From assembly GCA_021773295.1 (NCBI GenBank), contig JAJFKI010000007.1, positions 5,046-69,045 on the forward strand: a stretch of DNA of 64,000 nucleotides, read 5' to 3'. The notes beneath the pieces are model-generated. The model saw nothing but the letters and a program-made list of their open reading frames with translations, was not told where the DNA came from and made no database searches. A program made the position numbers and the translations under genes. Source of the DNA: Gammaproteobacteria bacterium. Its GTDB lineage: Bacteria > Pseudomonadota > Gammaproteobacteria > UBA1113. Positions 1,121 through 31,640 of this stretch are shown one piece after another. Numbering within the stretch: position 1 is the stretch's first letter; each line of letters begins with the position of its first letter.

Positions 1121-2296
1121 ATGGTACAAGGATTAATGACCACTTATATGCCCCTACCCGTCCAACTCTCACATGGCAAAGGCGCTATTGTTTGGGATAA
1201 AGAGGGTAATGAATACATTGATGCGTTAGGGGGCATAGCAGTCTGTGCCCTGGGCCATGATTATCCCGAGGTGACCACGGTCATCCAACAACAAGCGGCC
1301 AAGCTGCTTCATACCAGTAATTTATTTGAAATTGAATATCAAATAAACCTTGCTAAAAAACTGACGAAAGTATCCGGCATGGATGCCCTTTACTGCGGTA
1401 ACTCAGGCGCCGAAGCCAATGAAGCCGCCTTCAAACTATGCCGACTCTATGGCCATCAAAAAAACATTGATATACCGCATATCGTCGTCATGGAAAAAGC
1501 ATTTCATGGACGCACCCTCGGCTGTTTAAGTGCTTCGGGCTCCCACAAAGTCCAAGCTGGATTTGAACCCTTAGTGCAAGGCTTCGTCCGTTGTCCCTAC
1601 AATGATCTCAATGCCTTAGAAACCATTTTGAAAAATGATCACACTATCGTTGCTGTTATGTTAGAGCCCATTCAAGGCGAAGGCGGTATTATCGTTCCAG
1701 ATGATGGCTACTTGGCCGGCGTAAGAAGCTTATGTGATGCACACGAGTGTTTGATGGTACTGGATGAAATACAAACAGGCGTTGGTCGTACCGGCAGTTT
1801 CTATAATTACCAACAAGCAAACATTCTGCCTGATATTGTCACCAGTGCTAAAGCCTTGGGTAATGGCATTCCCATCGGTGCTTGTTTAACGCACGGTGTG
1901 GCCAGTGACTTATTCAAGCCAGGTAACCACGGCTCAACCTTTGGTGGTAATCCTTTATCAACGCGTGTGGCCTGCACCGTGATTGATACCATCATCAAAC
2001 ATAAGCTCGCGCAAAAGGCACAAAAGATGGGACAAAAAATCATGACACGCTTACAACAAGAACTGAGCGATAACCCTCATGTAAAAGGCATCCGCGGCAA
2101 AGGTTTGATGATAGGCGTTGAATTAGACAAACCATGTCGTGATATTTTAAACATTGGCTTAGAGCAAGGTATACTCTTTAACGTAACCGCAAACTCAGTG
2201 TTGCGCTTAGTGCCGCCTTACATCATCACTGAAGAACAAGCCGAAGCCATCAGCATACGTTTAATTAACTGTATTCATCACTATTATGGCGACTGA
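1121..2296 (+). CDS. Class III PLP aminotransferase, acetylornithine/succinylornithine transaminase (ArgD/AstC family)
   Basis: 391 aa; collinear with E. coli ArgD/AstC (LPV..G.G..WD..G..YID..GGIAV..LGH; EPIQGEGG; LDEIQTGVGRTG; TSAKALGNG lysine); RBS aaggaga upstream. Confidence 0.85.
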   Translation: MVQGLMTTYMPLPVQLSHGKGAIVWDKEGNEYIDALGGIAVCALGHDYPEVTTVIQQQAAKLLHTSNLFEIEYQINLAKKLTKVSGMDALYCGNSGAEANEAAFKLCRLYGHQKNIDIPHIVVMEKAFHGRTLGCLSASGSHKVQAGFEPLVQGFVRCPYNDLNALETILKNDHTIVAVMLEPIQGEGGIIVPDDGYLAGVRSLCDAHECLMVLDEIQTGVGRTGSFYNYQQANILPDIVTSAKALGNGIPIGACLTHGVASDLFKPGNHGSTFGGNPLSTRVACTVIDTIIKHKLAQKAQKMGQKIMTRLQQELSDNPHVKGIRGKGLMIGVELDKPCRDILNIGLEQGILFNVTANSVLRLVPPYIITEEQAEAISIRLINCIHHYYGD

Positions 2297-3623
2297 AGTT
2301 AACTTTGATGGCTTAGTGGGTTTGACCCATAATTATGGTGGCTTAGCACTCGGCAATACTGCCTCCATTAAAAACAAACTCATCTTGTCAAAACCAAGAC
2401 AAGCGGCGCTGCAAGGTTTGGATAAAATGAAATTTTGTCATGATCTTGGTTTGGCGCAAGCCGTGCTGCCGCCCCATTCGCGCCCAAATTTAAATTTTTT
2501 AAAGCAATTAGGCTTTACAGGCAGTACAGAGCAAATATTGCAACAAGCAGAAAAAGAAAGCCCGGCCTTACTCGTGACCAGCTACTCTGCCTCTGCCATG
2601 TGGACAGCCAATGCGGCCACGGTATCGCCCAGCGCCGATACAGAAGATGAAAAAGTGCATGTGACACCGGCGAATTTAATCAGCAATTTGCATCGCTCCC
2701 TAGAGACGCCAATGACGACGAAAATACTCAACGCTATTTTTCATGATCGCCATTATTTTCATCATCATACTCCCCTACCCTTACAGGCTAACTACAGTGA
2801 TGAAGGCGCCGCTAATCATGGTCGCTTGTGTCTCGATTATGACAGCCCAGGTGTTGAACTGTTTGTCTATGGTAAACACTCACTCGATGAAGCCAGAGCA
2901 TTGCCACGCCACTTCCCCGCACGCCAAACCCTTGATGCCAGTGAAGCGATTGCCAGATTACATTTACTGCAGCCCAGTAAAACTATTTTTGCACATCAAC
3001 ATCCAAGGGCTATTGACCAAGGCGTTTTTCACAATGATGTTTTGGCCGTCACCAATAAGAGCGTCATCTTTTATCACGAAAATGCTTACTTGCAGCATGA
3101 TGCTGTTATGGATGCCCTGCAACACGCCTTAGCCCCCACAGAGTTAATCCGCATTTGCGTCAGCAATGAGCAAGTCCCCTTAGCAGACGCTGTTAGTTCT
3201 TACTTATTTAATAGCCAGCTTGTTAGCATCAATGATGGCACCATGGCACTCATTGCACCACAAGAAGTCGCTGACAACCGACACACACAAGCTTTTGTCA
3301 AACAGTTACTTGCTAATAATGCGCAACCCATTCGCCATGTTCACTATGTGAATTGCCGTCAAAGCATGAAGAACGGCGGTGGGCCTGCCTGTTTGCGTTT
3401 GCGGGTTGTGCTAACAAAAGAAGAACAAGCGGCCATTAATCAATGCGTATTATTCACAAATGATCTGTATGAAAAACTTTTTACATGGATTAACAAACAC
3501 TACCGAGAAAAAATCTGTTATGATGATTTACTTGATCCACTACTAGTAGAAGAAAATTATCGGGCATTAGATGAATTGACCCAACTTCTTGATTTAGGTT
3601 GCATCTACGATTTTCAGCAATAA
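2286..3623 (+). CDS. astB: N-succinylarginine dihydrolase
   Basis: 445 aa; N-terminus EVNFDGLVGLTHNYGGL and C-terminal GGGPACLRLRVVLT catalytic-Cys motif match AstB; 11-nt overlap with upstream aminotransferase (operon). Confidence 0.85.
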   Translation: MATEVNFDGLVGLTHNYGGLALGNTASIKNKLILSKPRQAALQGLDKMKFCHDLGLAQAVLPPHSRPNLNFLKQLGFTGSTEQILQQAEKESPALLVTSYSASAMWTANAATVSPSADTEDEKVHVTPANLISNLHRSLETPMTTKILNAIFHDRHYFHHHTPLPLQANYSDEGAANHGRLCLDYDSPGVELFVYGKHSLDEARALPRHFPARQTLDASEAIARLHLLQPSKTIFAHQHPRAIDQGVFHNDVLAVTNKSVIFYHENAYLQHDAVMDALQHALAPTELIRICVSNEQVPLADAVSSYLFNSQLVSINDGTMALIAPQEVADNRHTQAFVKQLLANNAQPIRHVHYVNCRQSMKNGGGPACLRLRVVLTKEEQAAINQCVLFTNDLYEKLFTWINKHYREKICYDDLLDPLLVEENYRALDELTQLLDLGCIYDFQQ

Positions 3624-3626
3624 GAT

Positions 3627-6600
3627 ATGGCATTAAAAAACTACATAAAAACTGGCTGCCTCATCGCAACACTGCTAAGCGCACCGCTTGCTTTTGCCTA
3701 TACTGATTACATGTTCCCCAATGTTGTTATCGAACCTGCCGTTGGTTCTTATACCTCTGGCAAAGCGGATGTCATTACCCCACTTTTCTTTCGCAATGAT
3801 AGCTTATGGTTTGGTGATCTCGCCGGTAAGTATGGGCAAGATCAAGATTGGTACACTAGCCTCGGTGGCGGTTACCGCATTATCAATAATGATAACTTTC
3901 TTTCCGGTGCTTATGTATTTGCCGATTATAATGTCACCGTCGATGGCTCAACGTTTTGGGTCGCCAACCCTGGGGTAGAGCTTTATGCTCGCAATTGGGA
4001 CGCTCATCTGAACGGATATTTCCCAATCTCTAGTGATACAAAAACACTAGCCATCTTTTACGGCCCCAATGGCAAAAATCCCGTCAAAGCCTCAGGCCAC
4101 TCTGTCTTTGCTGAGAAGCTTAAGTTAATTGAAGAAATTGGCATGGGGGGTGATCTTGATGTGGGTTATGATATCCCGCGTAGGATTCCAGTGGTTGGCT
4201 TGATTCACATTGATGCTGGTCCTTATTACTCACACTTCCCTGAAGGTGATGATATGATCGGTGGTCAAGTGTCAGTGGAAACACGAGTGAATGAATTTGC
4301 TAAAATTAAATTAACTGACAGTTACGACACGCTTTTCCAAAACTCCTTTCTAGCTAGCCTGGTGATCCAATTTGGCGGTCAAGGTGTACCACAAACCAGC
4401 CCCATGAGTCGTCATCTTGTAGCGCGTCCCGTGCGTCATTTAGGCTCTGCAGCCGTTGGCACTGCCGAGCGCACACGTAAAATTATTTCTGATGATCGCG
4501 TGATGGTGGAGCTCTTTGGTAATATTTGGTACTTCACCTCTCAAGGTGGTTTCCCATTTGATAAAGCATTCGGCACAGACAATTGTACGGCTGAATTTCC
4601 TTGCGACAATGCTAGTTTTAATCAAATAACACTCAATGATATCAACGGGTTTTCTGTCAATGCATTACTCTTCTTCAAGCCAGGGAGTTATAGCGTTAAT
4701 AGCAGCGGCACTAATCCCAATGAAATTACCCTTCTAAATGGCATGTCTGCCTATGGCCGAACAGATAATTACACCATGGCTGCGGCCGATGACAACCGAC
4801 CAACGTTCTTTGGTACCTTTGATTTAGCAGGCAATAATTTAGTGACCAATGTTAACTTCCAAGGTACTGGTACCAATAAGTTGGTAGGTATCGATGCGGA
4901 TAATGCACCTAATTTAACGCTTAATAAAGTCCGGGTGAGTCATTATACGGGCACCAGTGGCAACACGGTCATGGGTATCGACATTGATAACAGTGCTAAC
5001 TTAAGCATGACCGATGTTGATGTCAATTTTATTCAAGGGGCTAATGGCAGTAACGGAACCAATGGTACCAATGGCGCTAACGCCTCTGGCGCAGGAGGCA
5101 TTGGTGGTAATGGTACGGTAGGAACTAATGGCACCAGTGCTGATAATGCCATTGGCATTAATCTCAATGGAGACACCAATGCTAGTTTAAGCACAGTAAC
5201 CGTCTCTAATATCGCCGGTGGCACGGGTGGTAACGGTGGTACTGGCGGTGCGGGTGGTTCTGTTACTAATCCCGATGCGGCGGCGCAAGGTGGTAGCGGC
5301 GCTGCTGGTGGTGTTGCTGGCTCCGGCGGTAATGCAATCGGTCTTGATATGGTTAGCAGTACCGCTACGATTGATACGCTGTCAATCACCAGTGTCACTG
5401 GTGGCCAAGGTGGCAGTGGTGGCAACTCCGGCAATGGTGGCTCAGCTGATAATGACAATAACTTTGACGCGGGTGGCGGAGCACTCAACGTAAACGCCGG
5501 TACTGGTGGCGGCGGTAGTAACGGCGGTAATGGCGGCAATGGTGGTGCAGCGACTGGGTTTGTCGATACAGGCGATACTATCACCCTAAACAATAGCTCA
5601 ATCACAACCATCAGTGGCGGTAGTGCCGGCGCTGGCGGTAATTCAGGTGCAGGCGGTAGCGCAACGGTAGACGATAACATCACCCAAGGAGGTAGCGGTG
5701 TGCTATCTGTCACAGCAGGCACTGGTGGTGATAGCGGTAACGCCGGTAATGGCGGTACTGGTGGTAATAGCATTGGCCTTGATGCAACAACCAGCGCAAC
5801 AACAACGATTAACAATCTAACCGTCAATAATATTAATGGTGGTGTAGGTAACAGCGGTGGCGCTGCAGGTAGTGGCGGAAATGCAACGGCCGATGATAAT
5901 GATCAGCTCAATAACAATGCGCTAACGGCCAATGGTGGCACAGGTGGTGATAGTGGTAATGGTGGCAATGGTGGTACTGGCGGCACTGCCACAGGGATCC
6001 ACAACGATAGCAGTACCATGACCATCAATACAGCCACCGTATCAACGGTCACTGGTGCTAATGGCGGCCTGGGCGGCGTGAGTAATCAGGCCGGCGATGC
6101 GGATACTTCAGACAACCTCTCATCCTTTGACAATGCAGGGCTTACGCTCACTGTCACGGCTGGCACGGGTGGTACCGGTGGTGTGAGTGGCACTGGTGGT
6201 AATGGTGGCGTCGCTATTGGCATCGACAATGATCAAAGTGCCGTGAGCAACCTAAGCACCGTCACGATTACCAGCGTGACTGGTGGTAGTGGTAATAGCA
6301 GTGGTAATGCAGGCCGTGGTGGTAATGCCAACGCTAATAATAATGACGAAGCTGCTACCGGCCAGAATAGTTCAACTGCGGGCAATGGCGGTCTGGGCGG
6401 CACGAGTGCCAATGGTGGTTCAGCTGGCTTAGCCGTTGGTCTTCGCTCTAGAAATTCAAGCCAAAACACCATCAGCAATAGTACTATTTCATACATTAGC
6501 GCCGGCACAGGCGGCGCTGGTGGTAATGGCGGTGCTGGTGGTAATTCCAATGCGAACTCAAATGGGATTGGCGACACGGGCACATTAACCGTGAATGCAG

Positions 6601-7859
6601 ATGATGCCGGTAACGGTAATGCAGCGGGTAATGGTGGCACGGGTGGTGATGGCTTTGGTATTACATCTGATAGCACCAGTGGTGTCACAATGACCTCAAC
6701 TAACCTAACACAAATCAATGGCGGCGCTGGCGGTGCCGGTGGTAGTGGTGGCGCCGGTGGTAGCTCGAGCGCAGATCAAAATTCAGTGGGGCTTTCCGCT
6801 AACATTATTGCCTCTGCCAACGACGCAGGTAATGGCGGTAATGGTGGTAATGCTGGTAATGGTGGCCTGGGTGTTGGTTATAGTGCGACAGGTAGTAGCA
6901 CCAATAACTTAACGGGCGGCACTATTAGCAATATTACAGGGGGTAATGCCGGTGCTGGTGGTATTGCAGGTAATGGTGGTAGTTCAAACACTAATAGCAA
7001 CACCACCCTCAATAGATCCATAACCGCCAATGCAAACAACGGTGGCAATGGTGGTGTTGGTGGTAATGGTGCCCTTGGTGGTAATGCTTTTGGTATCAAC
7101 GCAACCAGTTCTGCGACCCTCACCCAGACTAATGGCACTAACATTCAACAAATCGTTGCGGGCAGCGGCGGCAATGGTGCAGCCGGCGGCATAGGCGGCG
7201 GCAGTAATGCCAATAGCAATAGCATCCAAGCGGTGGGCGATACCCTAACGGTCAATGGTGCCATTGCTGGCTTAGGTGGAGTTGGTGGCACGGGTGGCGT
7301 GGGTGGCCGTTCGGCAGGCGCCAATGCTGTTACAAGTGCAACCATTAATATTACAAACAATACCATCACTCAAATTACGGGTGGCCAAGGCGGTATTGGT
7401 GGCAATGGCGCGCTGGGTGGCTCTGCCAGTACCAATAATAACACCGTTGCAGTCCCAATAGTCGGAAGTGCAACGGCAGGTACGGGTCGCGATGGCGGTG
7501 ATGGTGGTAATGGCGCCAATGGTGGTGATGCGCGCTCAACGGATGACAATGGTGGTAGTGGTACCATCAATGGCGTTGGCCTCACCCTCAGCAACCGTAC
7601 CGCTGGCAATGGTGCTAACAGTGGTGCTGGCGGCAATGGCGGTGATGCAAACTCAAACGGTAATACACCTGGTCTAACGCAAACACTCGGCACACCAGGT
7701 GATGGCGGCGACAGTGGCACTGGTGGTGATGGCGGTGATACTGATTCAAATACAGGTACTGCGGGTAGCGCTGCTAATGCTGGTACAGCAGGTGCCGTGG
7801 GACTAGGTGGTACTGGTGGTGCAGCTGCAACAGGTGGCGCGGGCGCTACCGAACCATAA
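3627..7859 (+). CDS. Secreted 1410-aa glycine/asparagine/threonine-rich repeat protein, putative surface adhesin. N-terminal ~300-aa globular, possibly beta-barrel, domain followed by >15 degenerate ~75-aa Gly-rich repeats
   Basis: Signal peptide MALKNYIKTGCLIATLLSAPLAFA; N-terminal region with alternating aromatic/hydrophobic beta-strand-like pattern; remainder dominated by TAGTGG(D/G)SGN(A/G)GNGGTGG / IT(S/T)VTGG modules; single uninterrupted ORF. Confidence 0.6.
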   Translation: MALKNYIKTGCLIATLLSAPLAFAYTDYMFPNVVIEPAVGSYTSGKADVITPLFFRNDSLWFGDLAGKYGQDQDWYTSLGGGYRIINNDNFLSGAYVFADYNVTVDGSTFWVANPGVELYARNWDAHLNGYFPISSDTKTLAIFYGPNGKNPVKASGHSVFAEKLKLIEEIGMGGDLDVGYDIPRRIPVVGLIHIDAGPYYSHFPEGDDMIGGQVSVETRVNEFAKIKLTDSYDTLFQNSFLASLVIQFGGQGVPQTSPMSRHLVARPVRHLGSAAVGTAERTRKIISDDRVMVELFGNIWYFTSQGGFPFDKAFGTDNCTAEFPCDNASFNQITLNDINGFSVNALLFFKPGSYSVNSSGTNPNEITLLNGMSAYGRTDNYTMAAADDNRPTFFGTFDLAGNNLVTNVNFQGTGTNKLVGIDADNAPNLTLNKVRVSHYTGTSGNTVMGIDIDNSANLSMTDVDVNFIQGANGSNGTNGTNGANASGAGGIGGNGTVGTNGTSADNAIGINLNGDTNASLSTVTVSNIAGGTGGNGGTGGAGGSVTNPDAAAQGGSGAAGGVAGSGGNAIGLDMVSSTATIDTLSITSVTGGQGGSGGNSGNGGSADNDNNFDAGGGALNVNAGTGGGGSNGGNGGNGGAATGFVDTGDTITLNNSSITTISGGSAGAGGNSGAGGSATVDDNITQGGSGVLSVTAGTGGDSGNAGNGGTGGNSIGLDATTSATTTINNLTVNNINGGVGNSGGAAGSGGNATADDNDQLNNNALTANGGTGGDSGNGGNGGTGGTATGIHNDSSTMTINTATVSTVTGANGGLGGVSNQAGDADTSDNLSSFDNAGLTLTVTAGTGGTGGVSGTGGNGGVAIGIDNDQSAVSNLSTVTITSVTGGSGNSSGNAGRGGNANANNNDEAATGQNSSTAGNGGLGGTSANGGSAGLAVGLRSRNSSQNTISNSTISYISAGTGGAGGNGGAGGNSNANSNGIGDTGTLTVNADDAGNGNAAGNGGTGGDGFGITSDSTSGVTMTSTNLTQINGGAGGAGGSGGAGGSSSADQNSVGLSANIIASANDAGNGGNGGNAGNGGLGVGYSATGSSTNNLTGGTISNITGGNAGAGGIAGNGGSSNTNSNTTLNRSITANANNGGNGGVGGNGALGGNAFGINATSSATLTQTNGTNIQQIVAGSGGNGAAGGIGGGSNANSNSIQAVGDTLTVNGAIAGLGGVGGTGGVGGRSAGANAVTSATINITNNTITQITGGQGGIGGNGALGGSASTNNNTVAVPIVGSATAGTGRDGGDGGNGANGGDARSTDDNGGSGTINGVGLTLSNRTAGNGANSGAGGNGGDANSNGNTPGLTQTLGTPGDGGDSGTGGDGGDTDSNTGTAGSAANAGTAGAVGLGGTGGAAATGGAGATEP

Positions 7860-7884
7860 AACAACCTATAAGGAAAGACAGACA

Positions 7885-8271
7885 GTGGAAAATACCGAAC
7901 CTGAAGGCGAACTCGTCATCCGCACACTAGCAATGCCCAAGGATACCAATGGCAATGGTGATATCTTCGGTGGCTGGATTCTGTCACAAATGGATCTCGG
8001 TGCCGGAATTCTTGCTATGAAAGTCGCAAAAAAAAGAGTAACCACCGTTGCCATTGATAAAATTGTCTTTGCTCATCCGGTAAGAGTGGGTGACACTGTC
8101 AATTGCTACGCTAAATTACTAAAAATCGGCAACACCTCCATGACCATGCAATTACAAGCATGGGTCATTAATATTCACTCCGAAGAAATGAAAAAAGTCG
8201 CCGAAAGTATTTTCACCTATGTTGCTCTGGATGAAAAGCGTCGACCAACGCCAGTGAACAGTACTTCTTAG
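7885..8271 (+). CDS. Acyl-CoA thioester hydrolase, hotdog fold (YciA-like)
   Basis: Collinear with E. coli YciA (LVLRTLAMP.DTN.NGDIFGGW..SQMD.G..LA); ORF track starts at GTG 7807 inside the upstream gene; GTG 7885 after the upstream stop (7857-7859) with aaggaaaga RBS preferred. Confidence 0.75.
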   Translation: MENTEPEGELVIRTLAMPKDTNGNGDIFGGWILSQMDLGAGILAMKVAKKRVTTVAIDKIVFAHPVRVGDTVNCYAKLLKIGNTSMTMQLQAWVINIHSEEMKKVAESIFTYVALDEKRRPTPVNSTS

Positions 8272-24042: not shown

Positions 24043-27000
24043 CTAAACAAAGTTTTGCGTAATATCCGTATCGTAGTAAATATCGCCGACTAATGTCAAT
24101 GATTGAACGTGTTGATAGACTTCACCGCCAACGTTAATCGTACCAAGCGCTTGCCATCCTGCACCCGTTTCAATATTGAGTACATCACCTGTGTTACCCT
24201 GTACGATTAGCGTATTTGGCGTGTCAACTGCGCCAAAGGTGTTAATTTCCGTGGACAGATCAAATACATCGGATAAGCCTAAGGTCAAGGTATTATTCCC
24301 GGTGCCGGTGATGTCGACAACTTCAATACCCTCGTGGATTAAATTGTTGATACTGGTTAAATCCACGACTTCACCACTGCCAGATAATTGTAGAGTATCC
24401 AGACCTGCACCACCATCAACTTTCGTCGTGTCTGCAGCATCATAAATGAGGGTGTCATCACCTGCCCCAGCGCGGTAAACATCATTACCACCCTGGCCAT
24501 CTAAGGTATCATCGCCTTGCATCGCAACAAGGTGGTTATCAAAGACATTACCTGTTAAGGCATCCGCCCCACTGGTGCCTTCGAAATCAATAATACCATT
24601 CGTATTTGAACCATAGATAACAAATAGCTCACCTTTACCTGGTCCACCACCAAGTGGGCTTTCGGGACTTCCTAAGATAATATCGTCATAGCCATCGCCA
24701 TCGAAATCGGTGACTTCTAGGTTAGCGCCCGCAATATCATCACGGCCAAATCGTTCATTGGCAGTATCACCATTGATGACATAGCCATTAAAGCCATCAA
24801 TATTTGAACCCACTCCATTTAACGTAAACGGTGCCGTTATGTTTGCCGAGCCGTAAATGACATACAAATCACCCGCATTAGTAAGCCCTTCATCACCTAA
24901 GGGGGCAACAAGGATTAAATCACTATAACCATCACCATTGACGTCCCCTGAGCCACTAACCGTTAACTCACTGGCCGCACTAGCAATAACGGCAAATCCA
25001 ACACTAGGCATACCGCCTACGGCAATACTATTAAATGTCGCTGGTGTCATTGACGTTAACGAAGGACCCCCGTAAATCACATAACCGACAATATCATTTT
25101 CAGCATTTGGCGTGCGTGTGGTAACAAATATATCATTATAACCATCTCCATTGACGTCTCCCGCACCAACAATGTTACCTTCTGCTTCAAAATCAACATC
25201 CGTAAGATCCGCGCCAGCATCAACGACATCAATAAATATACCGTTAGTTCCATTTAATAAACTTGCATCTAATGGGTTGGTGTAAGCACTCGTGCTACCG
25301 TAAACAATGGCAAATCCATCCGTGTTACCATCATCTACTGTTCCAAAGCCAATATCATCTAAACCATCGCCGTTAATATCACCTAAGTTCGCAATTCTTT
25401 GTGTTGCCGTCTCGCCAGTGCCCTCAAATTCAAAGCCGTTAGTGCCATTAACGGTATTCACATCAAGGGTCGCACCAAAACTGGTACTACCAAATATAAC
25501 AAAATGATTGCCACCGTTATTTGTTGTCATTGCAAAATCTGCAATACCATCGCCATTAACATCACCTAAGCCTTGGGCATCGTCAATATTTCCAAAGTTT
25601 AAGTTATCTTCAATTGTAAAACCGCTGAGATCATCAATATGAGTTTCCGCTGAAAGGATTGTGCTTTGTCCGAAAATGACTCTACCAACATTAGTGCCTA
25701 TTGTAGAGGTATAGGAAACCAGCATATCACCAATACCATCACCATTGACATCCCCAAGACCTGCAACTGCAAAGTCGATCTCATTAGCAAACGTGCCACC
25801 AACTGCAACATCACCTGTAATGACAAATCCTTGTGTGCCCGCGCCTAAAGCAGTCTTATTAATGCTACCTGTTACGCGCGTTGCACCACCATAAACAATA
25901 TAGGCTTCGCCATCATCAAAACCTGAAATCGTATTTTCAACGCCACGCGCATTGACGATGATATCGAGAATGCCATCACCATTATAATCACCCACACCCA
26001 CGGCACCACCAAGCGCGTCATCACTACCAATACCATTAAGTGTAAATCCAACAGCATTTGTAAGCGTTGTAGAAACAAGCTCATCAAAGCCAACCACTGT
26101 CACACTCACTGTCGCTGAATCTGTGGCGCCTTGTGAATCTGTTATCGTATAGGTGAAAGTGTCAACAGCCGTTTGCCCACCCGTCAAATTATTATGAAAG
26201 CTCGTACCAAAAGCATCATAAGTAAAGTTACCACTGGCATCCACGGTAACCGTTGCTCCATTCACACTGGTGGCATCAAAACTGGTGACACTAAAGGTAT
26301 CTCCCGTATCGATATCACTATCGTTTGTTACCACGTTACCTGCATCTTTACTTTTCGGATCAGGCAAGCTAACCGTATCAAAGGTGTCATCAACCGCTGT
26401 CGGTGCATCATTCACACCAGTCACAGTAATGGTCACTGTGGCTGTATCTGTACCACCATTACCATCATCGACTGTATAGGTAAAGGTATCGTTGAGGGTT
26501 TGGCCAACTGCTAATGCTTGCAAAGCTGCAGCCACCGTTGAATCATAAGTAAAACTACCATCGCCATTAACATTCACTGTTGCACCATTGACACTAGCTG
26601 CATCAAACACTGTGACTGTTAAGGTGTGGCCATCTGGATCGGTATCATTAACAAGTACGCCAGGCGCTGCAATATTAAGTGGCGTATCTTCATTGGTCGC
26701 ATCGCTGTCATCCATTGCATCAGGGACAAAATTAACGCCCGTTACCGTGACAGTAACCGTCGCTGTATCCGTACCGCCATTACTATCATCTATCGTGTAT
26801 GTGAAGGTGTCATTGAGGGTTTGGCCAACTGTTAATGCTTGTATTGTAGCAGATCCTGTTGGATCATAACTGAAACTACCATTGCCATTGACCGTTACAG
26901 CTGCACCACTGGTGCTGACTGCATCAAAGCCCGTGACGGTTAAACCCTGGCTTTCTGCATCTGTATCATTCACTAATACTCCTGGCACACCCTCATTAAG

Positions 27001-30000
27001 CACTGCATTTTCATCGGTTGCATAACCATCATCCACAGCATCTGGGGCATCATTAATGCCCGTGACATTAATGGTGACTGTCGCCGTATCGGTGCCAGTG
27101 TTGCCATCATCGATGGTATAAGTGAATGTATCATTGAGGGTTTGACCCGTATTGAGTGCTTGTATCGTCGCAGCACCGGTTGGATCATAACTATAGCTAC
27201 CATTGGCGTTGACATTAACTGTGGCACCACTCATGCTCGTTGCATCAAAGGCTGTGACTGTGATACCGTGACTTTCTGGATCCGAATCATTAACTAATAC
27301 ACCCGGCGCACCCGCATTAATCACGCTATCTTCATTCGTGGCATTAGCATCATCCACAGCATCTGGAGCATCATTAATACCTGTGAGTGTCACTGTGACT
27401 GTCGCCGTATCGGTGCCACCGTTACTATCATCAATCGTATAAGTGAATGTGTCATCAAGGGTTACGCCCGTGTCTAATGCTTGTATCGCCGCAGCACCCG
27501 TTGGATCATAACTGAAGCTACCATTGGCATTGACATTAACCGTGGCACCATTCACACTCGTTGCATTAAATGCTGTGACGGTTAAACCATGGCTCTCTGC
27601 ATCGGTGTCGTTGTTCAACACACCAGGCACACCAATATTCAACGCTGTATCTTCATCAGTTGCGTAACCATCATCTACTGCATCCGGAGCATCATTGACA
27701 CCCGTCACTGTGACGGTGACCGTCGCCGTATCGACGCCACCATTACCATCACTCACAGTATAATCGAACGTGTCATTAAGGGTAACACCCGTATTTAAGG
27801 CTTGAATGGTTGCGGCACTGGTAGGATCATAACTAAAGCTACCATCAGCATTGACATTAACTACGGCACCACTCGCACTCGCTGCATCAAACGCAATAAC
27901 TGTCAGTGTATCACTGGTATCAACGTCCGTATCACCATTTAAAACACCTAATGCTGCATTGACATTTAGCACAGCATCTTCGCTCGCATTGTAACCATCA
28001 TTATCAGCGACTGGCACATCATTTTCCCCGGTGATGGTCACCGTTACTGTAGCAACATCTGAGCTACCATTACCATCATCGACCGTATAACTAAAGCTGT
28101 CCACGGCTGTTTCACCGACCGCTAAGGATTCAAACTGACCATTAGGGTTATAAGTGACATCGGTCCCGTTATTGGTGACAAGACCTGTCGTACCCGCGAG
28201 GTTAAGACCGCTAATGGTTAGTGTGTCATTAAGATCTGGATCAAGATCATTAGCTAAGACGTCAACAAGCGTGCCAGCGTTATCTTCACTCACACTTGGT
28301 GTGTCTGCTACGGCTGTGACAGGATCATTAACACCTGAAATATGCATGGTAACCGTTTGCGTCGCTGTAGCACCATGCGCATCTTGTGCAGTATAAGTAA
28401 AAACATCCTGCGCCGTTTCTCCAACAGATAAATAATTAAAATTATTGCCTGGCTCATACTGAAAGTCACCACCACCAAGATCAGTGACTAATCCTATCGC
28501 ACCTGTTGTATTTAAACTTATAAAGGTTACATCCTCCCCTGAGTCAGTGTCAAAGTCGTTACCAATAGGAGAGGGATATATAGGAAAAACATCATCTTCT
28601 GTCAAAAAGTTATTGTCTGCAACTAAGACCATTGGATCATCAACACCAAGCACATTAATTGTCACATGAGCTGTGTCAGTAGCAATCCCATCGGTTATTG
28701 TATAATTGAAAGAATCATTAGTTGTTTGGCCCCCTGGTAAAATTTGTATGATAAAGACCGATGTTGGATCATACGTAAAACTGCCATCGCTTAGTAATGT
28801 AACATCAGCCCCTAGAAGCGAAGTAAACATACCAATTGGTGAAGTTACCGTCAATGTATCTAACGTATCAACATCTGTGTCATTGGCCAATATGCCACTT
28901 GCGGCATTAATATTAAAAATCGTATCTTCAGTAGCACCAACATAACTATCATTTACTGCAATAGGCGCATCATTAACCCCTTGAATGCTATAAGTGACCG
29001 TTGCTGTATCTGTGCCACCATTGCCATCACTGATTGTGTAAGTAAACACGTCTGTAACTACTTGGCCTTCAGCAAGTGCTTGGATATCTGGGTTTGTATT
29101 AGTGATGCTATATTGGTTTAATCCTGATACAGAATCAACGAATAAGTTACCGTAAGTGCCGCCTCCGAAGGAAGGACTTGAAGAAACACTACCAGCAACA
29201 TTTGTAACCGTCAGTGTATCTAATGTATCAATATCTGTGTCATTTACAAACAAGCTCGCACCAGTGTCTGCGAACTGAAATATACTTGGAAGATTCGCAT
29301 CTTCAATCAAAGGTATTGGCTGCGCATCATTGCCTGCCGTTGGTGCATCATTTGCACCTGTGACGGTAATATTTAAATTAGCTGTAGCTGTGGCGCCTTG
29401 ATCATCGGTGATTTGGTATGAGAATGAATCAATCACAGTTTGCGTCGCTGCTAATGCTTGAACATTTGCGGCGGCGTTGTCTAGTGTGTAGCTGTAAACA
29501 CCGTTGCTGGCAATGGTTACCGAGCCATAAGTGCCCATAACTACATTACCTACATTCGCCGGTAGACCAGCCACTGCTGTAACTGAAAATGATGAGCCAT
29601 TATCTACATCAGTATCATTAGTTGTAACTGTACCTCCTGCAACTAAAGTGCCATCTTCAGCCACATCATTTGAATCATCATTTGCTACGGGTGCGTCGTT
29701 GATACCCGTAATCGTCACCGTCACACTGGCTGTCGAGAACCCGCCATTACCATCACTCGCCGTATAACTAAAGGTATCGGTCGCGGTTTCTCCCACGGCT
29801 AAGCTTTCAAATTGTCCATTGGGATCGTAGGTGACATTCGTACCGTTATTAATAACACTGCCCAGTGTGCCCGCCGTATTCACAGCACTCACCGTCAACA
29901 CATCACTCGTATCCGGATCCGTATCATTGCTTAAGACATTAATCGCAACAGCAGGACCATCTTCATCGGCGGCGCCTACATCTGCAACGGCCGTTGGGCC

Positions 30001-31497
30001 ATCGTTTGAGCCCGTAATCGTCACCGTCACACTGGCTGTCGAGAACCCGCCATTACCATCACTCGCCGTATAACTGAAGGTATCGGTCGCGGTTTCCCCC
30101 ACGGCTAAGCTTTCAAATTGTCCATTGGGATCGTAGGTGACATTCGTACCGTTATTGATAACACTGCCCAATGTGCCCGCCGTATTCACAGCACTCACTG
30201 TTAAACTCGGGCTATCAATATCGCTATCGTTGGCTAGTACATCAATCACAACTGGCAAACCATCTTCATTAGCATTCCCAACATCATCAACTGTTGTAGG
30301 ATTATCATTTACGCCATTAACCGTCACCGTCACCGTTGCGGTATCCGTCAAACCTATTTCATCGGTGACAACGTATGTGAACATGTCTATTACAGATTGG
30401 CCAGCCGCTAGAGATTGAAAGCTAGCGGCTGGTGTGTATGTTACGACTCCATTGACAAGTTGTACTGTGCCTGTTGTTGTGCTGCCGTCAATGGAGAGTA
30501 CTGATAATGTTGTACCTGGGTTGGGATCGTTGTCATTTGCTGTTAATACATTTTCGCTTATTACGAGCGGTGTGTCTTCATTTGTTATTAGGTTGTCTGG
30601 ATTCGCAGTGGGAACTTGATTGAGTCTTGCGACGTTAATTGTAATTGGCGCTTCTGCTGTTGCACCACTTGGATCGGTGACCCTAGCTACCACTGTATAA
30701 GTTTGACCACCTAAATAATTAATTGCATCCGCGTTTGCAACTGAGAGAACACCTGTTGTCGAATTAATAGTGAATAAACTGAGCCCATTACCACTTACTA
30801 GTGAGTAAGTGATAGGATCGGCATCAGGATCAGAGGCTTGGACTGTGCCAATGGTGCCACCATCAGGAACAAACTGATTAACATTATATTGCAATGCACC
30901 TATGATGGGCGCTTGGTTGCTAGATTCCGAGACTGTGTTTGTAAAGTCGTCTGGATTATCATCAGACGGTGGTGGTGGCTCATTATCATCGCTAGGTGGT
31001 ATAGTTATTGTGACGGGGGGCTCTGCATTAGGGGTCGTTATTTGTGGTGGACTTTCCAAAGCTGTATTGAAATTTTGAAAATCATTACTTATCAATGAAA
31101 CCTCAGGCACATACTCAAGGGATGAAGATTGCTGTAGTTCCTCCATGGTGTAATAAGTTGTTGGGATCTTTAAATCAGTATCTGTTAAATCAAAGTTTTT
31201 AATTTTTGCGGGTTGAGCTAAACGACCTTGGAGACTTAAACCATCTATTATATGTATTTCTCGATGAACCGCAGAATCGATATACTCCATAGACATACCG
31301 ATTGATACACTCGTTAAACCGCCTGAGAAGAATGCGCCTGGTGTAAACGCAACGATGGATGGCGCAATAATAAAGCCAACCAGACCAACTGCTGTTATTA
31401 CAACATCAGGATGATCAAAAGCGGATTGGCCTACTCGACCATAATCTTGGACAACGACGGAACGTCTTCTTCGTCGTTTCTCATCTGGTAATGCCAT
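24043..31497 (-). CDS. Giant (2484 aa) type I-secreted RTX adhesin. ~14 tandem ~100-aa cadherin/VCBS-like repeats ending in (V/I)NDAP, FG-GAP-like repeats, RTX GGxGxD nonapeptides and a C-terminal secretion signal
   Basis: Repeats (..DAPDAVDDGYATDED..LTVTAF.ATS.NGATVNVN.NGSFSYDPTG...TDTATVTVTVTG(V/I)NDAP); GDVNGDG(Y/I)(N/A/S)D FG-GAP-like motifs; GQGGNDVYRAGAGDDTL RTX motifs; adjacent to ABC/HlyD genes. Confidence 0.85.
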   Translation of the reverse strand: MALPDEKRRRRRSVVVQDYGRVGQSAFDHPDVVITAVGLVGFIIAPSIVAFTPGAFFSGGLTSVSIGMSMEYIDSAVHREIHIIDGLSLQGRLAQPAKIKNFDLTDTDLKIPTTYYTMEELQQSSSLEYVPEVSLISNDFQNFNTALESPPQITTPNAEPPVTITIPPSDDNEPPPPSDDNPDDFTNTVSESSNQAPIIGALQYNVNQFVPDGGTIGTVQASDPDADPITYSLVSGNGLSLFTINSTTGVLSVANADAINYLGGQTYTVVARVTDPSGATAEAPITINVARLNQVPTANPDNLITNEDTPLVISENVLTANDNDPNPGTTLSVLSIDGSTTTGTVQLVNGVVTYTPAASFQSLAAGQSVIDMFTYVVTDEIGLTDTATVTVTVNGVNDNPTTVDDVGNANEDGLPVVIDVLANDSDIDSPSLTVSAVNTAGTLGSVINNGTNVTYDPNGQFESLAVGETATDTFSYTASDGNGGFSTASVTVTITGSNDGPTAVADVGAADEDGPAVAINVLSNDTDPDTSDVLTVSAVNTAGTLGSVINNGTNVTYDPNGQFESLAVGETATDTFSYTASDGNGGFSTASVTVTITGINDAPVANDDSNDVAEDGTLVAGGTVTTNDTDVDNGSSFSVTAVAGLPANVGNVVMGTYGSVTIASNGVYSYTLDNAAANVQALAATQTVIDSFSYQITDDQGATATANLNITVTGANDAPTAGNDAQPIPLIEDANLPSIFQFADTGASLFVNDTDIDTLDTLTVTNVAGSVSSSPSFGGGTYGNLFVDSVSGLNQYSITNTNPDIQALAEGQVVTDVFTYTISDGNGGTDTATVTYSIQGVNDAPIAVNDSYVGATEDTIFNINAASGILANDTDVDTLDTLTVTSPIGMFTSLLGADVTLLSDGSFTYDPTSVFIIQILPGGQTTNDSFNYTITDGIATDTAHVTINVLGVDDPMVLVADNNFLTEDDVFPIYPSPIGNDFDTDSGEDVTFISLNTTGAIGLVTDLGGGDFQYEPGNNFNYLSVGETAQDVFTYTAQDAHGATATQTVTMHISGVNDPVTAVADTPSVSEDNAGTLVDVLANDLDPDLNDTLTISGLNLAGTTGLVTNNGTDVTYNPNGQFESLAVGETAVDSFSYTVDDGNGSSDVATVTVTITGENDVPVADNDGYNASEDAVLNVNAALGVLNGDTDVDTSDTLTVIAFDAASASGAVVNVNADGSFSYDPTSAATIQALNTGVTLNDTFDYTVSDGNGGVDTATVTVTVTGVNDAPDAVDDGYATDEDTALNIGVPGVLNNDTDAESHGLTVTAFNATSVNGATVNVNANGSFSYDPTGAAAIQALDTGVTLDDTFTYTIDDSNGGTDTATVTVTLTGINDAPDAVDDANATNEDSVINAGAPGVLVNDSDPESHGITVTAFDATSMSGATVNVNANGSYSYDPTGAATIQALNTGQTLNDTFTYTIDDGNTGTDTATVTINVTGINDAPDAVDDGYATDENAVLNEGVPGVLVNDTDAESQGLTVTGFDAVSTSGAAVTVNGNGSFSYDPTGSATIQALTVGQTLNDTFTYTIDDSNGGTDTATVTVTVTGVNFVPDAMDDSDATNEDTPLNIAAPGVLVNDTDPDGHTLTVTVFDAASVNGATVNVNGDGSFTYDSTVAAALQALAVGQTLNDTFTYTVDDGNGGTDTATVTITVTGVNDAPTAVDDTFDTVSLPDPKSKDAGNVVTNDSDIDTGDTFSVTSFDATSVNGATVTVDASGNFTYDAFGTSFHNNLTGGQTAVDTFTYTITDSQGATDSATVSVTVVGFDELVSTTLTNAVGFTLNGIGSDDALGGAVGVGDYNGDGILDIIVNARGVENTISGFDDGEAYIVYGGATRVTGSINKTALGAGTQGFVITGDVAVGGTFANEIDFAVAGLGDVNGDGIGDMLVSYTSTIGTNVGRVIFGQSTILSAETHIDDLSGFTIEDNLNFGNIDDAQGLGDVNGDGIADFAMTTNNGGNHFVIFGSTSFGATLDVNTVNGTNGFEFEGTGETATQRIANLGDINGDGLDDIGFGTVDDGNTDGFAIVYGSTSAYTNPLDASLLNGTNGIFIDVVDAGADLTDVDFEAEGNIVGAGDVNGDGYNDIFVTTRTPNAENDIVGYVIYGGPSLTSMTPATFNSIAVGGMPSVGFAVIASAASELTVSGSGDVNGDGYSDLILVAPLGDEGLTNAGDLYVIYGSANITAPFTLNGVGSNIDGFNGYVINGDTANERFGRDDIAGANLEVTDFDGDGYDDIILGSPESPLGGGPGKGELFVIYGSNTNGIIDFEGTSGADALTGNVFDNHLVAMQGDDTLDGQGGNDVYRAGAGDDTLIYDAADTTKVDGGAGLDTLQLSGSGEVVDLTSINNLIHEGIEVVDITGTGNNTLTLGLSDVFDLSTEINTFGAVDTPNTLIVQGNTGDVLNIETGAGWQALGTINVGGEVYQHVQSLTLVGDIYYDTDITQNFV

Positions 31498-31640
31498 ACA
31501 ACCACCAACCTATAACTCAACAACACACTAGCAAAACCTGCCAAAAGAAGTTTTGCTCTCAGTATTTCATAAGTATAGTAAAGCTATGCGAGAATGCTTA
31601 TTAAGTTTTTTTTAATAAAGAAGAAATTTGTTAGTAACGC

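What the first reader, a model, noticed from the sequence alone, without database searches (positions are those of the whole stretch)
3627..7859. 1410-aa secreted protein made almost entirely of Gly/Asn/Thr/Ser repeats behind a beta-rich N-terminal domain
After a signal peptide and a ~300-aa non-repetitive domain, the protein has more than 1000 aa of degenerate ~75-aa repeats. The N-terminal domain is rich in alternating aromatic/hydrophobic dipeptides, compatible with an outer-membrane beta-barrel as in inverse autotransporters. Repeat cores include I(T/S)xVTGGxGGxGGxGG...LTVTAGTGGxSGNxGNGGTGG. There are no RTX Asp-containing nonapeptides, no collagen GXY register and no C-terminal autotransporter barrel. 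The composition suggests a long beta-helical or beta-roll surface fibre of unclear secretion route. GGN-rich DNA of this kind is prone to replication slippage and therefore to phase or size variation.
Basis: partly seen in the sequence, partly recalled or inferred. Interest (0 to 1): 0.6.

Follow-up and report, generated by a model that had tools for sequence, protein, structure and literature searches.

The report
Inverse autotransporter with glycine-rich beta-helix fibre
This gene encodes an outer-membrane "inverse autotransporter" (the intimin/invasin secretion type) that most likely displays a long beta-helical fibre built from twelve glycine/asparagine-rich 73-residue repeats instead of the usual antibody-like domains; this is an uncharacterised variant of a known surface-protein class.

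Summary

The slippage/phase-variation idea is not supported. The longest exact DNA repeat is 15 nt, which equals the codon-shuffle expectation. There are no perfect tandem repeats and no homopolymer tracts.

The barrel-plus-beta-helix family is large (2922 cluster representatives), with relatives in Rickettsiella and Legionella. Barrel plus pectin-lyase fold was already noted in 2016. About 8 of the top 150 relatives share the Gly-rich passenger, which no Pfam model or solved structure matches by sequence.

Verdict: new variant of a known kind. Function is inferred to be an adhesin or surface fibre.

The parts
2286..3623 (+). Upstream gene astB (N-succinylarginine dihydrolase). Its stop codon ends 3 nt before the ATG of the inverse-autotransporter gene.
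   Evidence: ORF list. Homologues carry PF04996 and are named succinylarginine dihydrolase. The junction sequence shows the stop at 3621-3623, the ATG at 3627 and no clear Shine-Dalgarno sequence.
3627..3698 (+). Sec-type signal peptide, aa 1-24 (MALKNYIKTGCLIATLLSAPLAFA), with predicted cleavage after AFA.
   Evidence: Read from the translation. It has low pLDDT and lies before the first barrel strand in the AF2 model. No dedicated predictor was run.
3714..4376 (+). Outer-membrane beta-barrel of the inverse-autotransporter (IAT_beta) type, aa about 30-250.
4377..4541 (+). Linker, aa 251-305. It has a short helix at 260-266, the conserved R-x-L-D-P-x-x-R-H-L motif, a beta-hairpin at 283-297 and the conserved NIW(F/Y)F strand at 300-303. 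It is presumed to pass through the barrel pore.
   Evidence: AF2 secondary structure, with pLDDT rising from 64 to 97. Family conservation of R263, D266/267, R270, F302 and F303. Its position inside the pore is inferred by analogy with intimin and was not inspected.
4542..4661 (+). N-terminal cap of the passenger, aa 306-345. It has the conserved CT(A/F)E(x)PC cysteine pair (C320, C326) and a capping helix at 333-342.
   Evidence: C320 and C326 are conserved in at least 90% of 61 relatives, and P325 in at least 90% of both the 61- and 109-sequence alignments. The motif is listed in 51 relatives. Helices come from the AF2 model.
4662..5147 (+). Base of the right-handed parallel beta-helix, aa 346-507. 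It consists of ordinary PbH1-like rungs of about 28 aa (VGIDADNAPNLTLNKVRVSHY, MGIDIDNSANLSMTDVDVNFIQ) and includes the family motif GQSxxGRT...PA...RP.
5148..7739 (+). Twelve Gly/Asn/Thr/Ser-rich repeat units of about 73 aa (62-76), aa 508-1371. Each unit has one canonical rung (AIGxxxxxSxxxIxxxxIxxITGG), a GGxGGxGGxGG tract, a D/N-rich loop, a short LTVxA strand and a second GGx tract.
   Evidence: Autocorrelation lag 73. Self-HMM units at E 9e-12 to 3e-23. Consensus with conserved hydrophobic and Gly columns. 219-nt spacing of degenerate DNA repeats. AF2 pLDDT is 80-97 for the units up to about residue 680 and lower beyond.
7740..7859 (+). Degenerate C-terminal remnant, aa 1372-1410 (TDSNTGTAGSAANAGTAGAVGLGGTGGAAATGGAGATEP), plus the stop codon. 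There is no distinct tip domain and no Cys-containing C-cap.
   Evidence: Translation. Weak partial self-HMM hit at 1371-1404. Gly-rich relatives also end without a cap.

Best explanation
The gene encodes a type Ve (inverse) autotransporter.

Proposed mechanism:
1. The signal peptide takes the protein across the inner membrane through Sec.
2. Residues about 30-250 insert into the outer membrane as an intimin/invasin-type beta-barrel. By analogy this needs BAM/TAM.
3. The linker (251-305) occupies the pore.
4. The C-terminal 1100 residues are threaded out and stay attached to the cell.

Unlike intimin and invasin, the passenger is not a string of Ig-like domains. It is one continuous right-handed parallel beta-helix. 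It starts at a disulfide-stabilised cap next to the barrel, runs through about six ordinary rungs, and is then extended by twelve 73-residue units. In each unit a normal hydrophobic rung alternates with glycine-tract (GGx)n segments and an Asp/Asn-rich loop. I infer two rungs of about 36 residues per unit, possibly three. That gives a rigid, acidic, lysine-free fibre of roughly 15-20 nm.

Because the barrel-proximal end emerges first, folding of the helix from the cap outwards (N to C) would drive export. This mirrors the C-to-N folding of classical type Va beta-helix passengers.

The likely role is a surface adhesin, auto-aggregation fibre or shielding fibre of a host-associated, Legionellales-like gammaproteobacterium.

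Shown here: the ORF, the repeats, the barrel homology and fold, and the beta-helix fold of the passenger base. Inferred: pore threading, direction of folding, rung count, surface exposure and adhesive function.
For: Barrel:
- Pfam IAT_beta is above the gathering score for the window protein and for 32 of 55 relatives.
- A Gly-rich relative is named 'inverse autotransporter beta domain-containing protein' by NCBI, and another has a precomputed IAT_beta hit.
- The AF2 model built with a 109-sequence MSA has pLDDT 83 and pTM 0.78.
- Its top Foldseek PDB hits are the intimin and invasin beta-domains (6-9e-10). These are 5 orders of magnitude better than the next barrel.

Passenger:
- The family profile matches the UpaB passenger.

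Repeats:
- They keep a conserved hydrophobic and glycine pattern through all 12 units although the DNA has diverged. This argues for a folded solenoid rather than a disordered low-complexity tail.
- Residues 607-610 after the first Gly tract are modelled as a strand, in the position equivalent to AIGLD after the second tract. This supports two rungs per unit.

Gene origin and family:
- Synonymous codon usage and GC3 (0.40-0.415 against 0.38) match neighbouring housekeeping genes, so the gene is native.
- The family has 2922 cluster representatives, 541 of them at E below 1e-30.
- Relatives occur in Rickettsiella and Legionella genomes.
- The literature already records invasin_beta barrels fused to pectin-lyase-fold passengers (PMC4943183).
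Against: - The Pfam match covers only model positions 58-153 of 279.
- The sequence-only match to intimin is weak (E 0.024).
- The full-length protein gives no Pfam or NCBIfam hit at all.
- AF2 confidence falls below 60 in most of residues 680-900, and residues 901-1410 were not modelled.
- DSSP assigns no strands to the GGx tracts, and I had no coordinates. Their conformation and the number of rungs per unit are therefore not established.
- Nothing here tests expression, surface exposure or binding.
- There is no tip or head domain that would point to a specific ligand.
- The organism is unidentified. A 100%-identical AstB exists on an unnamed NCBI contig, and the next best is 57% identical.
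Confidence: 0.8

Rival explanations
1. The barrel assignment holds, but the Gly-rich repeats are not beta-helix rungs. The (GGx)n tracts would form polyglycine-II-type bundles or sheets, as proposed for mycobacterial PE_PGRS domains and seen in the phage S16 gp38 adhesin and snow-flea antifreeze protein (comparators from my own knowledge). These would decorate or replace the solenoid. Alternatively, the distal part is largely flexible.
Confidence: 0.15
2. The passenger is an enzyme or a carbohydrate-binding module, such as a polysaccharide lyase, epimerase or depolymerase like the top structural matches, displayed on the cell surface rather than acting as an adhesin.
Against: Identity to these enzymes is only 10-15%. 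No catalytic Pfam or NCBIfam family is hit. The beta-helix fold is shared with many non-enzymatic adhesins (Vag8, PfbA, UpaB). The 940-aa repeat part has no Lys, 2 Glu and 8 Arg.
Confidence: 0.1
3. The gene is a contingency locus. The GGN-rich repeats slip during replication and produce phase (frameshift) or size variants of the fibre.
For: There are many short degenerate 9/18-nt GGTGGYAAT-like arrays. In a related pair, P0082 (779 aa) is 95.6% identical to P0158 (1107 aa) over 756 aa and then continues in what looks like an out-of-frame reading of the repeats. Both Rickettsiella massiliensis copies are fragmented.
Against: In this gene the longest exact direct repeat is 15 nt, the same as in codon-shuffled controls (13-17 nt). 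There are no perfect tandem repeats and no homopolymer of 7 or more. The 219-nt units are only 60-79% identical. Near-identical cluster members P0126, P0154 and P0156 have identical repeat regions. The P0082 frameshift may be an assembly error in a metagenome.
Confidence: 0.06
4. The barrel acts as a ZirT-like translocator for separately encoded substrates, or the protein is a type I-secreted RTX-like beta-roll, rather than a self-exporting autotransporter.
For: Some inverse-autotransporter barrels export co-encoded partners (PMC4943183). A T1SS (HlyD plus ABC) is encoded in the same window at 31641..35091. The passenger is Gly- and Asp-rich.
Against: The passenger is fused in one ORF to the barrel. 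The neighbouring genes are metabolic: astB and a thioesterase. The window's T1SS sits next to its own 2484-aa cadherin-like substrate. There is only one chance RTX nonapeptide, and the N-terminus carries a Sec signal.
Confidence: 0.02

Closest known systems
Intimin (EHEC) and invasin (Yersinia): classical type Ve inverse autotransporters (PDB 4E1S, 4E1T)
   Different: There is no periplasmic LysM or N-terminal extension, since the barrel starts about 6 residues after the signal peptide. Barrel identity is only 15-16%. The passenger is a beta-helix rather than Big/Ig-like domains with a C-type lectin tip.
Invasin_beta barrels fused to 'pectin lyase' (IPR011050) passengers, noted bioinformatically by Heinz et al. 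2016 (PMC4943183)
   Same: The same architecture class: an inverse-autotransporter barrel with a right-handed beta-helix passenger. The window protein belongs to a family of 2922 cluster representatives with this layout.
   Different: That paper gives no structural or functional analysis and does not mention Gly-rich repeats. Here the helix is extended by 12 Gly/Asn-rich 73-aa units, which only about 8 of the 150 best relatives share.
Type Va beta-helical passengers (UpaB 6BEA, Vag8 7AKV, pertactin; self-associating AIDA-I/Ag43 type)
   Different: The domain order is inverted, with the barrel N-terminal, so export and folding must run N to C from a cap next to the barrel. There is no C-terminal autochaperone or barrel. 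No AIDA or pertactin Pfam hits were found.
Mycobacterial PE_PGRS proteins
   Same: Long arrays of GGxGGx triplets with Asn and Ala, cell-surface location, and high GC in the repeats caused by Gly codons (composition).
   Different: There is no PE domain and no ESX secretion context, and the host is Gram-negative. The repeats are interrupted every 73 aa by hydrophobic beta-helix rungs. No sequence match was found.
Chlamydial polymorphic membrane proteins (Pmp; GGA(I/L/V) and FxxN motifs)
   Same: An autotransporter-displayed beta-helix with Gly-Gly-small-hydrophobic junction motifs. Here GG(N/V)(A/S)(I/F)G occurs at four unit boundaries (567, 712, 860, 1151), with GGAATG and GGTATG at two others.
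   Different: There is only one exact GGA[ILV] and three FxxN in 1410 aa. There is no Chlam_PMP Pfam hit and no C-terminal barrel.

Membership tests
Type Ve inverse autotransporter (IAT) | N-terminal Sec signal peptide | tested here: met
   MALKNYIKTGCLIATLLSAPLAFA|Y has Lys residues in the n-region, a hydrophobic core and an A-x-A site. This was judged by eye, and no predictor was available. The first barrel strand begins at residue 32.
Type Ve inverse autotransporter (IAT) | Sequence match to the IAT_beta / invasin_beta domain (PF11924) above the curated threshold | tested here: met
   34.5 bits against a cut-off of 22.3, E 2.2e-8, but only model positions 58-153 of 279 are covered. 32 of 55 relatives also match, best 1.8e-12. 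The full-length query gave no hit because of the low-complexity tail.
Type Ve inverse autotransporter (IAT) | Beta-barrel structurally equivalent to the 12-stranded intimin/invasin barrel | tested here: met
Type Ve inverse autotransporter (IAT) | Inverted order: barrel N-terminal, passenger C-terminal, in one polypeptide | tested here: met
   Barrel at 30-250 and passenger at 306-1410 in a single ORF.
Type Ve inverse autotransporter (IAT) | Linker with a helical segment occupying the barrel lumen | tested here: inconclusive
   A helix at 260-266 and a conserved RxLDPxxRHL motif follow the last strand, with pLDDT 64-92. No coordinates were available to confirm that the linker lies inside the pore.
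Type Ve inverse autotransporter (IAT) | Passenger exposed on the cell surface; biogenesis dependent on BAM/TAM | not testable with these tools
   This needs protease shaving or immunofluorescence, and BamA/TamA depletion experiments.
Classical intimin/invasin subgroup | Passenger made of Big_1/Big_2 Ig-like domains with a C-type lectin-like tip; often a periplasmic LysM domain | tested here: not met
   No Big, lectin or LysM Pfam hits. The passenger base models as a beta-helix. The barrel starts directly after the signal peptide. These features are typical of the subgroup but do not define type Ve (PMC4943183).
Right-handed parallel beta-helix (pectin-lyase fold) proteins | Stack of about 22-30-residue rungs with three strands each and an N-terminal capping helix; structural match to known members | tested here: met
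RTX / beta-roll T1SS substrates | Tandem GGxGxDxUx nonapeptides and a C-terminal T1SS signal, with no Sec signal | tested here: not met
   One isolated match in 1410 aa, a period of 73 rather than 9, and a Sec signal peptide present.
PE_PGRS | N-terminal PE domain followed by a PGRS GGAGGx array | tested here: not met
   No PE domain hit. The N-terminus is an outer-membrane barrel.
Collagen-like proteins | Long uninterrupted (G-X-Y)n, usually Pro-rich | tested here: not met
   The longest run is 6 triplets, with 5 Pro in 940 aa.

The most novel reading that the evidence does not exclude
The (GGx)4-5 tracts, two per 73-aa unit, may stack in register along the fibre to form a continuous 'glycine face', meaning polyglycine-II-like or otherwise non-beta strands hydrogen-bonded between rungs, on a right-handed solenoid. 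That would be a hybrid repeat fold not represented in the PDB or Pfam. It would be a Gram-negative, type Ve-exported structural counterpart of mycobacterial PGRS domains. It would also be a natural test case for N-to-C vectorial folding of a beta-solenoid as the driving force of inverse autotransport.
Probability: 0.2. Interest if true: 0.6.

Novelty: new variant of a known kind. Interest (0 to 1): 0.4.

Why it matters
Type Ve secretion has been studied almost only with Ig-domain passengers, where sequential folding of small domains is thought to power export. This is a well-defined member of a large but uncharacterised branch of about 2900 sequence clusters, with relatives in Rickettsiella and Legionella genomes. 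In this branch the same barrel carries a single continuous beta-helix that starts at the barrel.

That gives a mirror-image system to classical autotransporters for asking whether vectorial solenoid folding drives secretion in either direction. The Gly/Asn-rich, lysine-free 73-residue unit is not covered by any Pfam model or solved structure. It could define a new repeat family of surface fibres in intracellular or host-associated bacteria.

Practically, annotation pipelines miss the barrel when the full-length protein is scanned, because the low-complexity tail suppresses the hit.

Tried and rejected
- Full-length Pfam and NCBIfam scans gave nothing. The barrel hit appeared only when the N-terminus was scanned alone.
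- The word-indexed homologue search with the N-terminal 471 aa found only 2 relatives. Repeating it with a full-length family alignment was swamped by Gly-rich words and yielded 3 hits, so that search was wasted. The exhaustive profile search was needed to see the family.
- The first AF2 job, with a 3-sequence MSA, was unusable at pLDDT 38.
- The afdb50 fold library was not available. The viral fold library added nothing beyond generic barrels and beta-helices.
- Sequence searches of the repeat block against the PDB and Pfam found nothing meaningful.
- Exact look-ups of the window's proteins found no encoding contig. The 100%-identical AstB in NCBI carries no name, so the organism stays unidentified.
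- The AstB search gave only hits of 58% identity or less from scattered taxa.
- There is no synteny between the window neighbourhood and any related locus, and no second family member in the window.
- The Rfam scan of the window found no RNA genes.
- The promoter and terminator scan was at background level.
- I considered and rejected RTX, collagen-like, PE_PGRS and Pmp membership, and recent horizontal acquisition. On the last point, codon usage matches the neighbours.
- A neighbour-joining tree of barrel domains did not place the window protein with the other Gly-rich members. At about 35% identity the tree is too weak to say whether the Gly-rich passenger arose once.

Full report
**Observation**

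The window has an uninterrupted ORF at 3627..7859 on the + strand, encoding 1410 aa. Its N-terminus, MALKNYIKTGCLIATLLSAPLAFA|YTDY, has the features of a Sec signal peptide (by inspection).

Residues 471-1410 are 29% Gly, 14% Asn, 12% Thr, 12% Ala and 10% Ser. They contain no Lys, 2 Glu, 45 Asp, 8 Arg and 5 Pro.

The repeat is real:
- Identity autocorrelation peaks at lag 73 (0.279) and lag 146 (0.258), against a background of 0.151 ± 0.032.
- An HMM built from the protein itself finds 12 consecutive units between residues 508 and 1371. Ten score E 1e-19 to 1e-23. The first unit is shortened (62 aa, 9e-12) and the last is shortened (66 aa, 2e-13). Two single ordinary rungs lie at 420-446 and 449-487, and a degenerate tail at 1372-1410.
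- The unit consensus is AiGIxaxxSsTxTintxTIsnITGGxGGaGGnGGaGGSAnaNdNxqgxxgtLTVNAGTGGdGGnGGNGGnGGxA. Ten columns are conserved hydrophobic and many are conserved Gly.

There is one chance RTX nonapeptide, no collagen-length G-X-Y run and no C-terminal barrel.

The raised GC of the repeat region (53% against about 43%) comes from amino-acid composition. Synonymous codon usage and GC3 match neighbouring housekeeping genes.

**The N-terminal domain is an inverse-autotransporter barrel**

The full-length protein gives no Pfam or NCBIfam hit. Residues 1-306 scanned alone match PF11924 IAT_beta at 34.5 bits (cut-off 22.3, E 2.2e-8), covering residues 40-140.

A profile built from the N-terminal 471 residues and two relatives finds 2922 cluster representatives in an exhaustive search. 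Of these, 541 have E below 1e-30, and nearly all match over the whole 470 positions. Of 55 family members scanned, 32 hit IAT_beta (best 1.8e-12) and 2 hit Beta_helix. One Gly-rich relative is named 'inverse autotransporter beta domain-containing protein' by NCBI.

An AlphaFold2 model of residues 1-900 with a 109-sequence alignment reached mean pLDDT 83 and pTM 0.78, with pLDDT above 90 across residues 30-250.
- Foldseek against the PDB puts the intimin and invasin beta-domains first (4E1S 6.2e-10, 4E1T 8.2e-10, 5G26 9e-10, TMt 0.67). The next barrel, KdgM, is at 5e-5.
- Sequence-only comparison with intimin is weak (E 0.024), so the relationship is distant (15-16% identity).

**Linker, cap and passenger**

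In the model and in the family alignments, the elements after the last barrel strand (238-249) are:
- a short helix at 260-266;
- the conserved RxLDPxxRHL motif;
- a hairpin at 283-297;
- the conserved NIW(F/Y)F strand;
- a cap with the nearly invariant cysteine pair C320/C326 (CTxExPC, present in most relatives);
- a capping helix at 333-342.

From residue 346 the chain forms rungs of about 28 residues.

- NosD, pectate lyases and phage tailspikes;

The family profile also matches the UpaB autotransporter passenger by sequence (6.5e-5).

Heinz et al. 2016 (PMC4943183) had already noted a group of invasin_beta proteins with a pectin-lyase-fold C-terminal domain. Reviews describe type Ve passengers as typically Ig-like or lectin-like (PMC6555100). 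The architecture class is therefore known from sequence surveys but, as far as the searchable literature shows, it is uncharacterised.

**The Gly-rich units**

Each unit begins with a canonical PbH1-like rung, AIGxDxxxSxxxIxxxxIxxITGG, modelled as three strands. It continues with a (GGx)4-5 tract, a short strand (ADND in unit 2, residues 607-610), an Asp/Asn-rich loop of low confidence, a hydrophobic strand (xLTVxA) and a second (GGx)4-5 tract.

The short strand after the first Gly tract sits where AIGLD sits after the second tract. The autocorrelation also has secondary peaks at lags 35-38. From this I infer two rungs of about 36-37 residues per unit. Three rungs of about 24 residues cannot be excluded. 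With about 6 base rungs this gives a fibre of roughly 15-20 nm.

The GGx tracts have high pLDDT in the first units (83-98) but no DSSP strand assignment. Confidence falls after about residue 680, where the alignment of repeats between homologues is least reliable. I had no coordinates, so the conformation of the tracts is open.

No Pfam model and no PDB sequence matches the repeat block.

Among the 150 best family representatives, 8 have tails with 28-37% Gly and 10-35 GGxGG motifs (P0030, P0083, P0033, P0018, P0115, P0073, P0082, P0126). Their repeat periods range from about 62 to 94 aa. The other members have ordinary N/S/T-rich beta-helix passengers, often ending in a Cys-containing cap.

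**DNA-level repeats and variation**

The 219-nt units are only 60-79% identical. TRF finds only short, imperfect 9/18-nt arrays. The longest exact direct repeat in the gene is 15 nt, the same as in codon-shuffled versions of the repeat region (13-17 nt). There are no perfect tandem repeats and no homopolymer of 7 or more.

Near-identical cluster members of one relative have identical repeat regions. One related pair, P0082 and P0158, differs by what looks like a frameshift inside the repeats, but this may be an assembly error. The slippage/phase-variation proposal is therefore not supported for this gene.

**Context and organism**

The ATG lies 3 nt after the stop codon of astB, with no evident Shine-Dalgarno sequence. 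Upstream are an aminotransferase (astC/argD-like), sodB and grxD. Downstream are a 4HBT thioesterase, an amidase, a cystathionine-lyase-like gene, usp, nrdAB and mutH. Promoter and terminator scans were at background level.

There is no second family member in the window and no synteny with related loci.

Genomic relatives at 27-35% identity occur in Rickettsiella (including tandem pairs and fragmented copies), an uncultured Legionella and several Pseudomonadota MAGs.

The window's own genome is represented in NCBI by an unnamed 84.5-kb contig carrying an identical AstB. The next best AstB is 57% identical. The organism is therefore a poorly sampled lineage. A Legionellales-like affiliation is only inferred from where the relatives are found.

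**Mechanism (inferred)**

The proposed route is Sec export, insertion of the barrel by BAM/TAM, a hairpin of the linker in the pore, and emergence of the barrel-proximal cap first. The solenoid would then fold rung by rung from N to C, pulling the rest of the chain out. This is the mirror image of C-to-N folding in type Va.

The exposed fibre is acidic (net about -39 over the repeats), lacks lysine and has no tip domain. The fibre surface itself, or its Asp/Asn loops, would then be the functional element. Adhesion, self-association as in AIDA/Ag43-type helices, or shielding are the plausible roles. An enzymatic or glycan-binding base cannot be excluded, given the structural neighbours.

**Verdict**

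The barrel and beta-helix interpretation is supported and sharpened to type Ve. The slippage claim is rejected. This is a new variant of a known kind and is of moderate interest.

Noticed in passing
window 24043..35091 (- strand): A second giant surface protein. It is a 2484-aa ORF (24043..31497) with 14 Big_9/Cadherin_4 stretches, 10 Cadherin_5 stretches and FG-GAP repeats. It lies directly downstream of an HlyD-family membrane-fusion protein (31641..33023) and an ABC transporter (32935..35091). This looks like a type I-secreted cadherin-like adhesin locus.
   Followed up: partly
window 3621..3629: The inverse-autotransporter ATG (3627) lies 3 nt after the astB stop codon (3621-3623), with no recognisable Shine-Dalgarno sequence. 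This suggests co-transcription or translational coupling of a surface fibre with arginine-catabolism genes, which is an odd pairing.
   Followed up: partly
window 5037..7856 (aa 471-1410): The 940-residue repeat region contains no lysine at all. It has 45 Asp, 2 Glu and 8 Arg, for a net charge of about -39, and only 7 aromatic residues. Some Gly-rich relatives do contain Lys, so this is not a family-wide rule.
   Followed up: no
window 5033..5827, 6233..6718, 6878..7229, 7370..7864 (- strand): Long antisense ORFs inside the repeat region. The only one translated (7370..7864) is Pro/Ala/Val-rich, as expected for the reverse complement of GGN/GCN codons, so these ORFs are probably by-products of the repeats and should not be called as genes.
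   Followed up: partly
L007 10001-11000 and L008 10001-10421 (Rickettsiella massiliensis 20B); L002 9923-16099; L005 5145-12591: In R. massiliensis both family loci are broken into short ORFs of 142 and 107 aa at the match, so they are probably pseudogenes. In a Rickettsiella MAG (L002) and a Pseudomonadota MAG (L005) two family members sit in tandem.
   Followed up: partly
proteins P0082 and P0158 (relatives, not in the window): These two are 95.6% identical over 756 aa. P0082 then ends in KVVMVELLPLRVSFLVVLVVGVV, which reads like an out-of-frame translation of the Gly-rich repeats. It is either a real frameshift variant or a metagenome assembly error.
   Followed up: partly
whole window: No Rfam family (rRNA, tRNA, riboswitch or sRNA) reaches its gathering score in 64 kb. 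An identical AstB exists on an unnamed 84,548-bp NCBI contig, while the next best homologue is 57% identical. The source is therefore a sparsely sampled lineage.
   Followed up: partly
window 7807..8271 (+): The listed 154-aa GTG ORF overlaps the end of the inverse-autotransporter gene. The 4HBT thioesterase domain starts at the Met at 7933 (112 aa), so the overlap is probably an ORF-calling artefact.
   Followed up: partly
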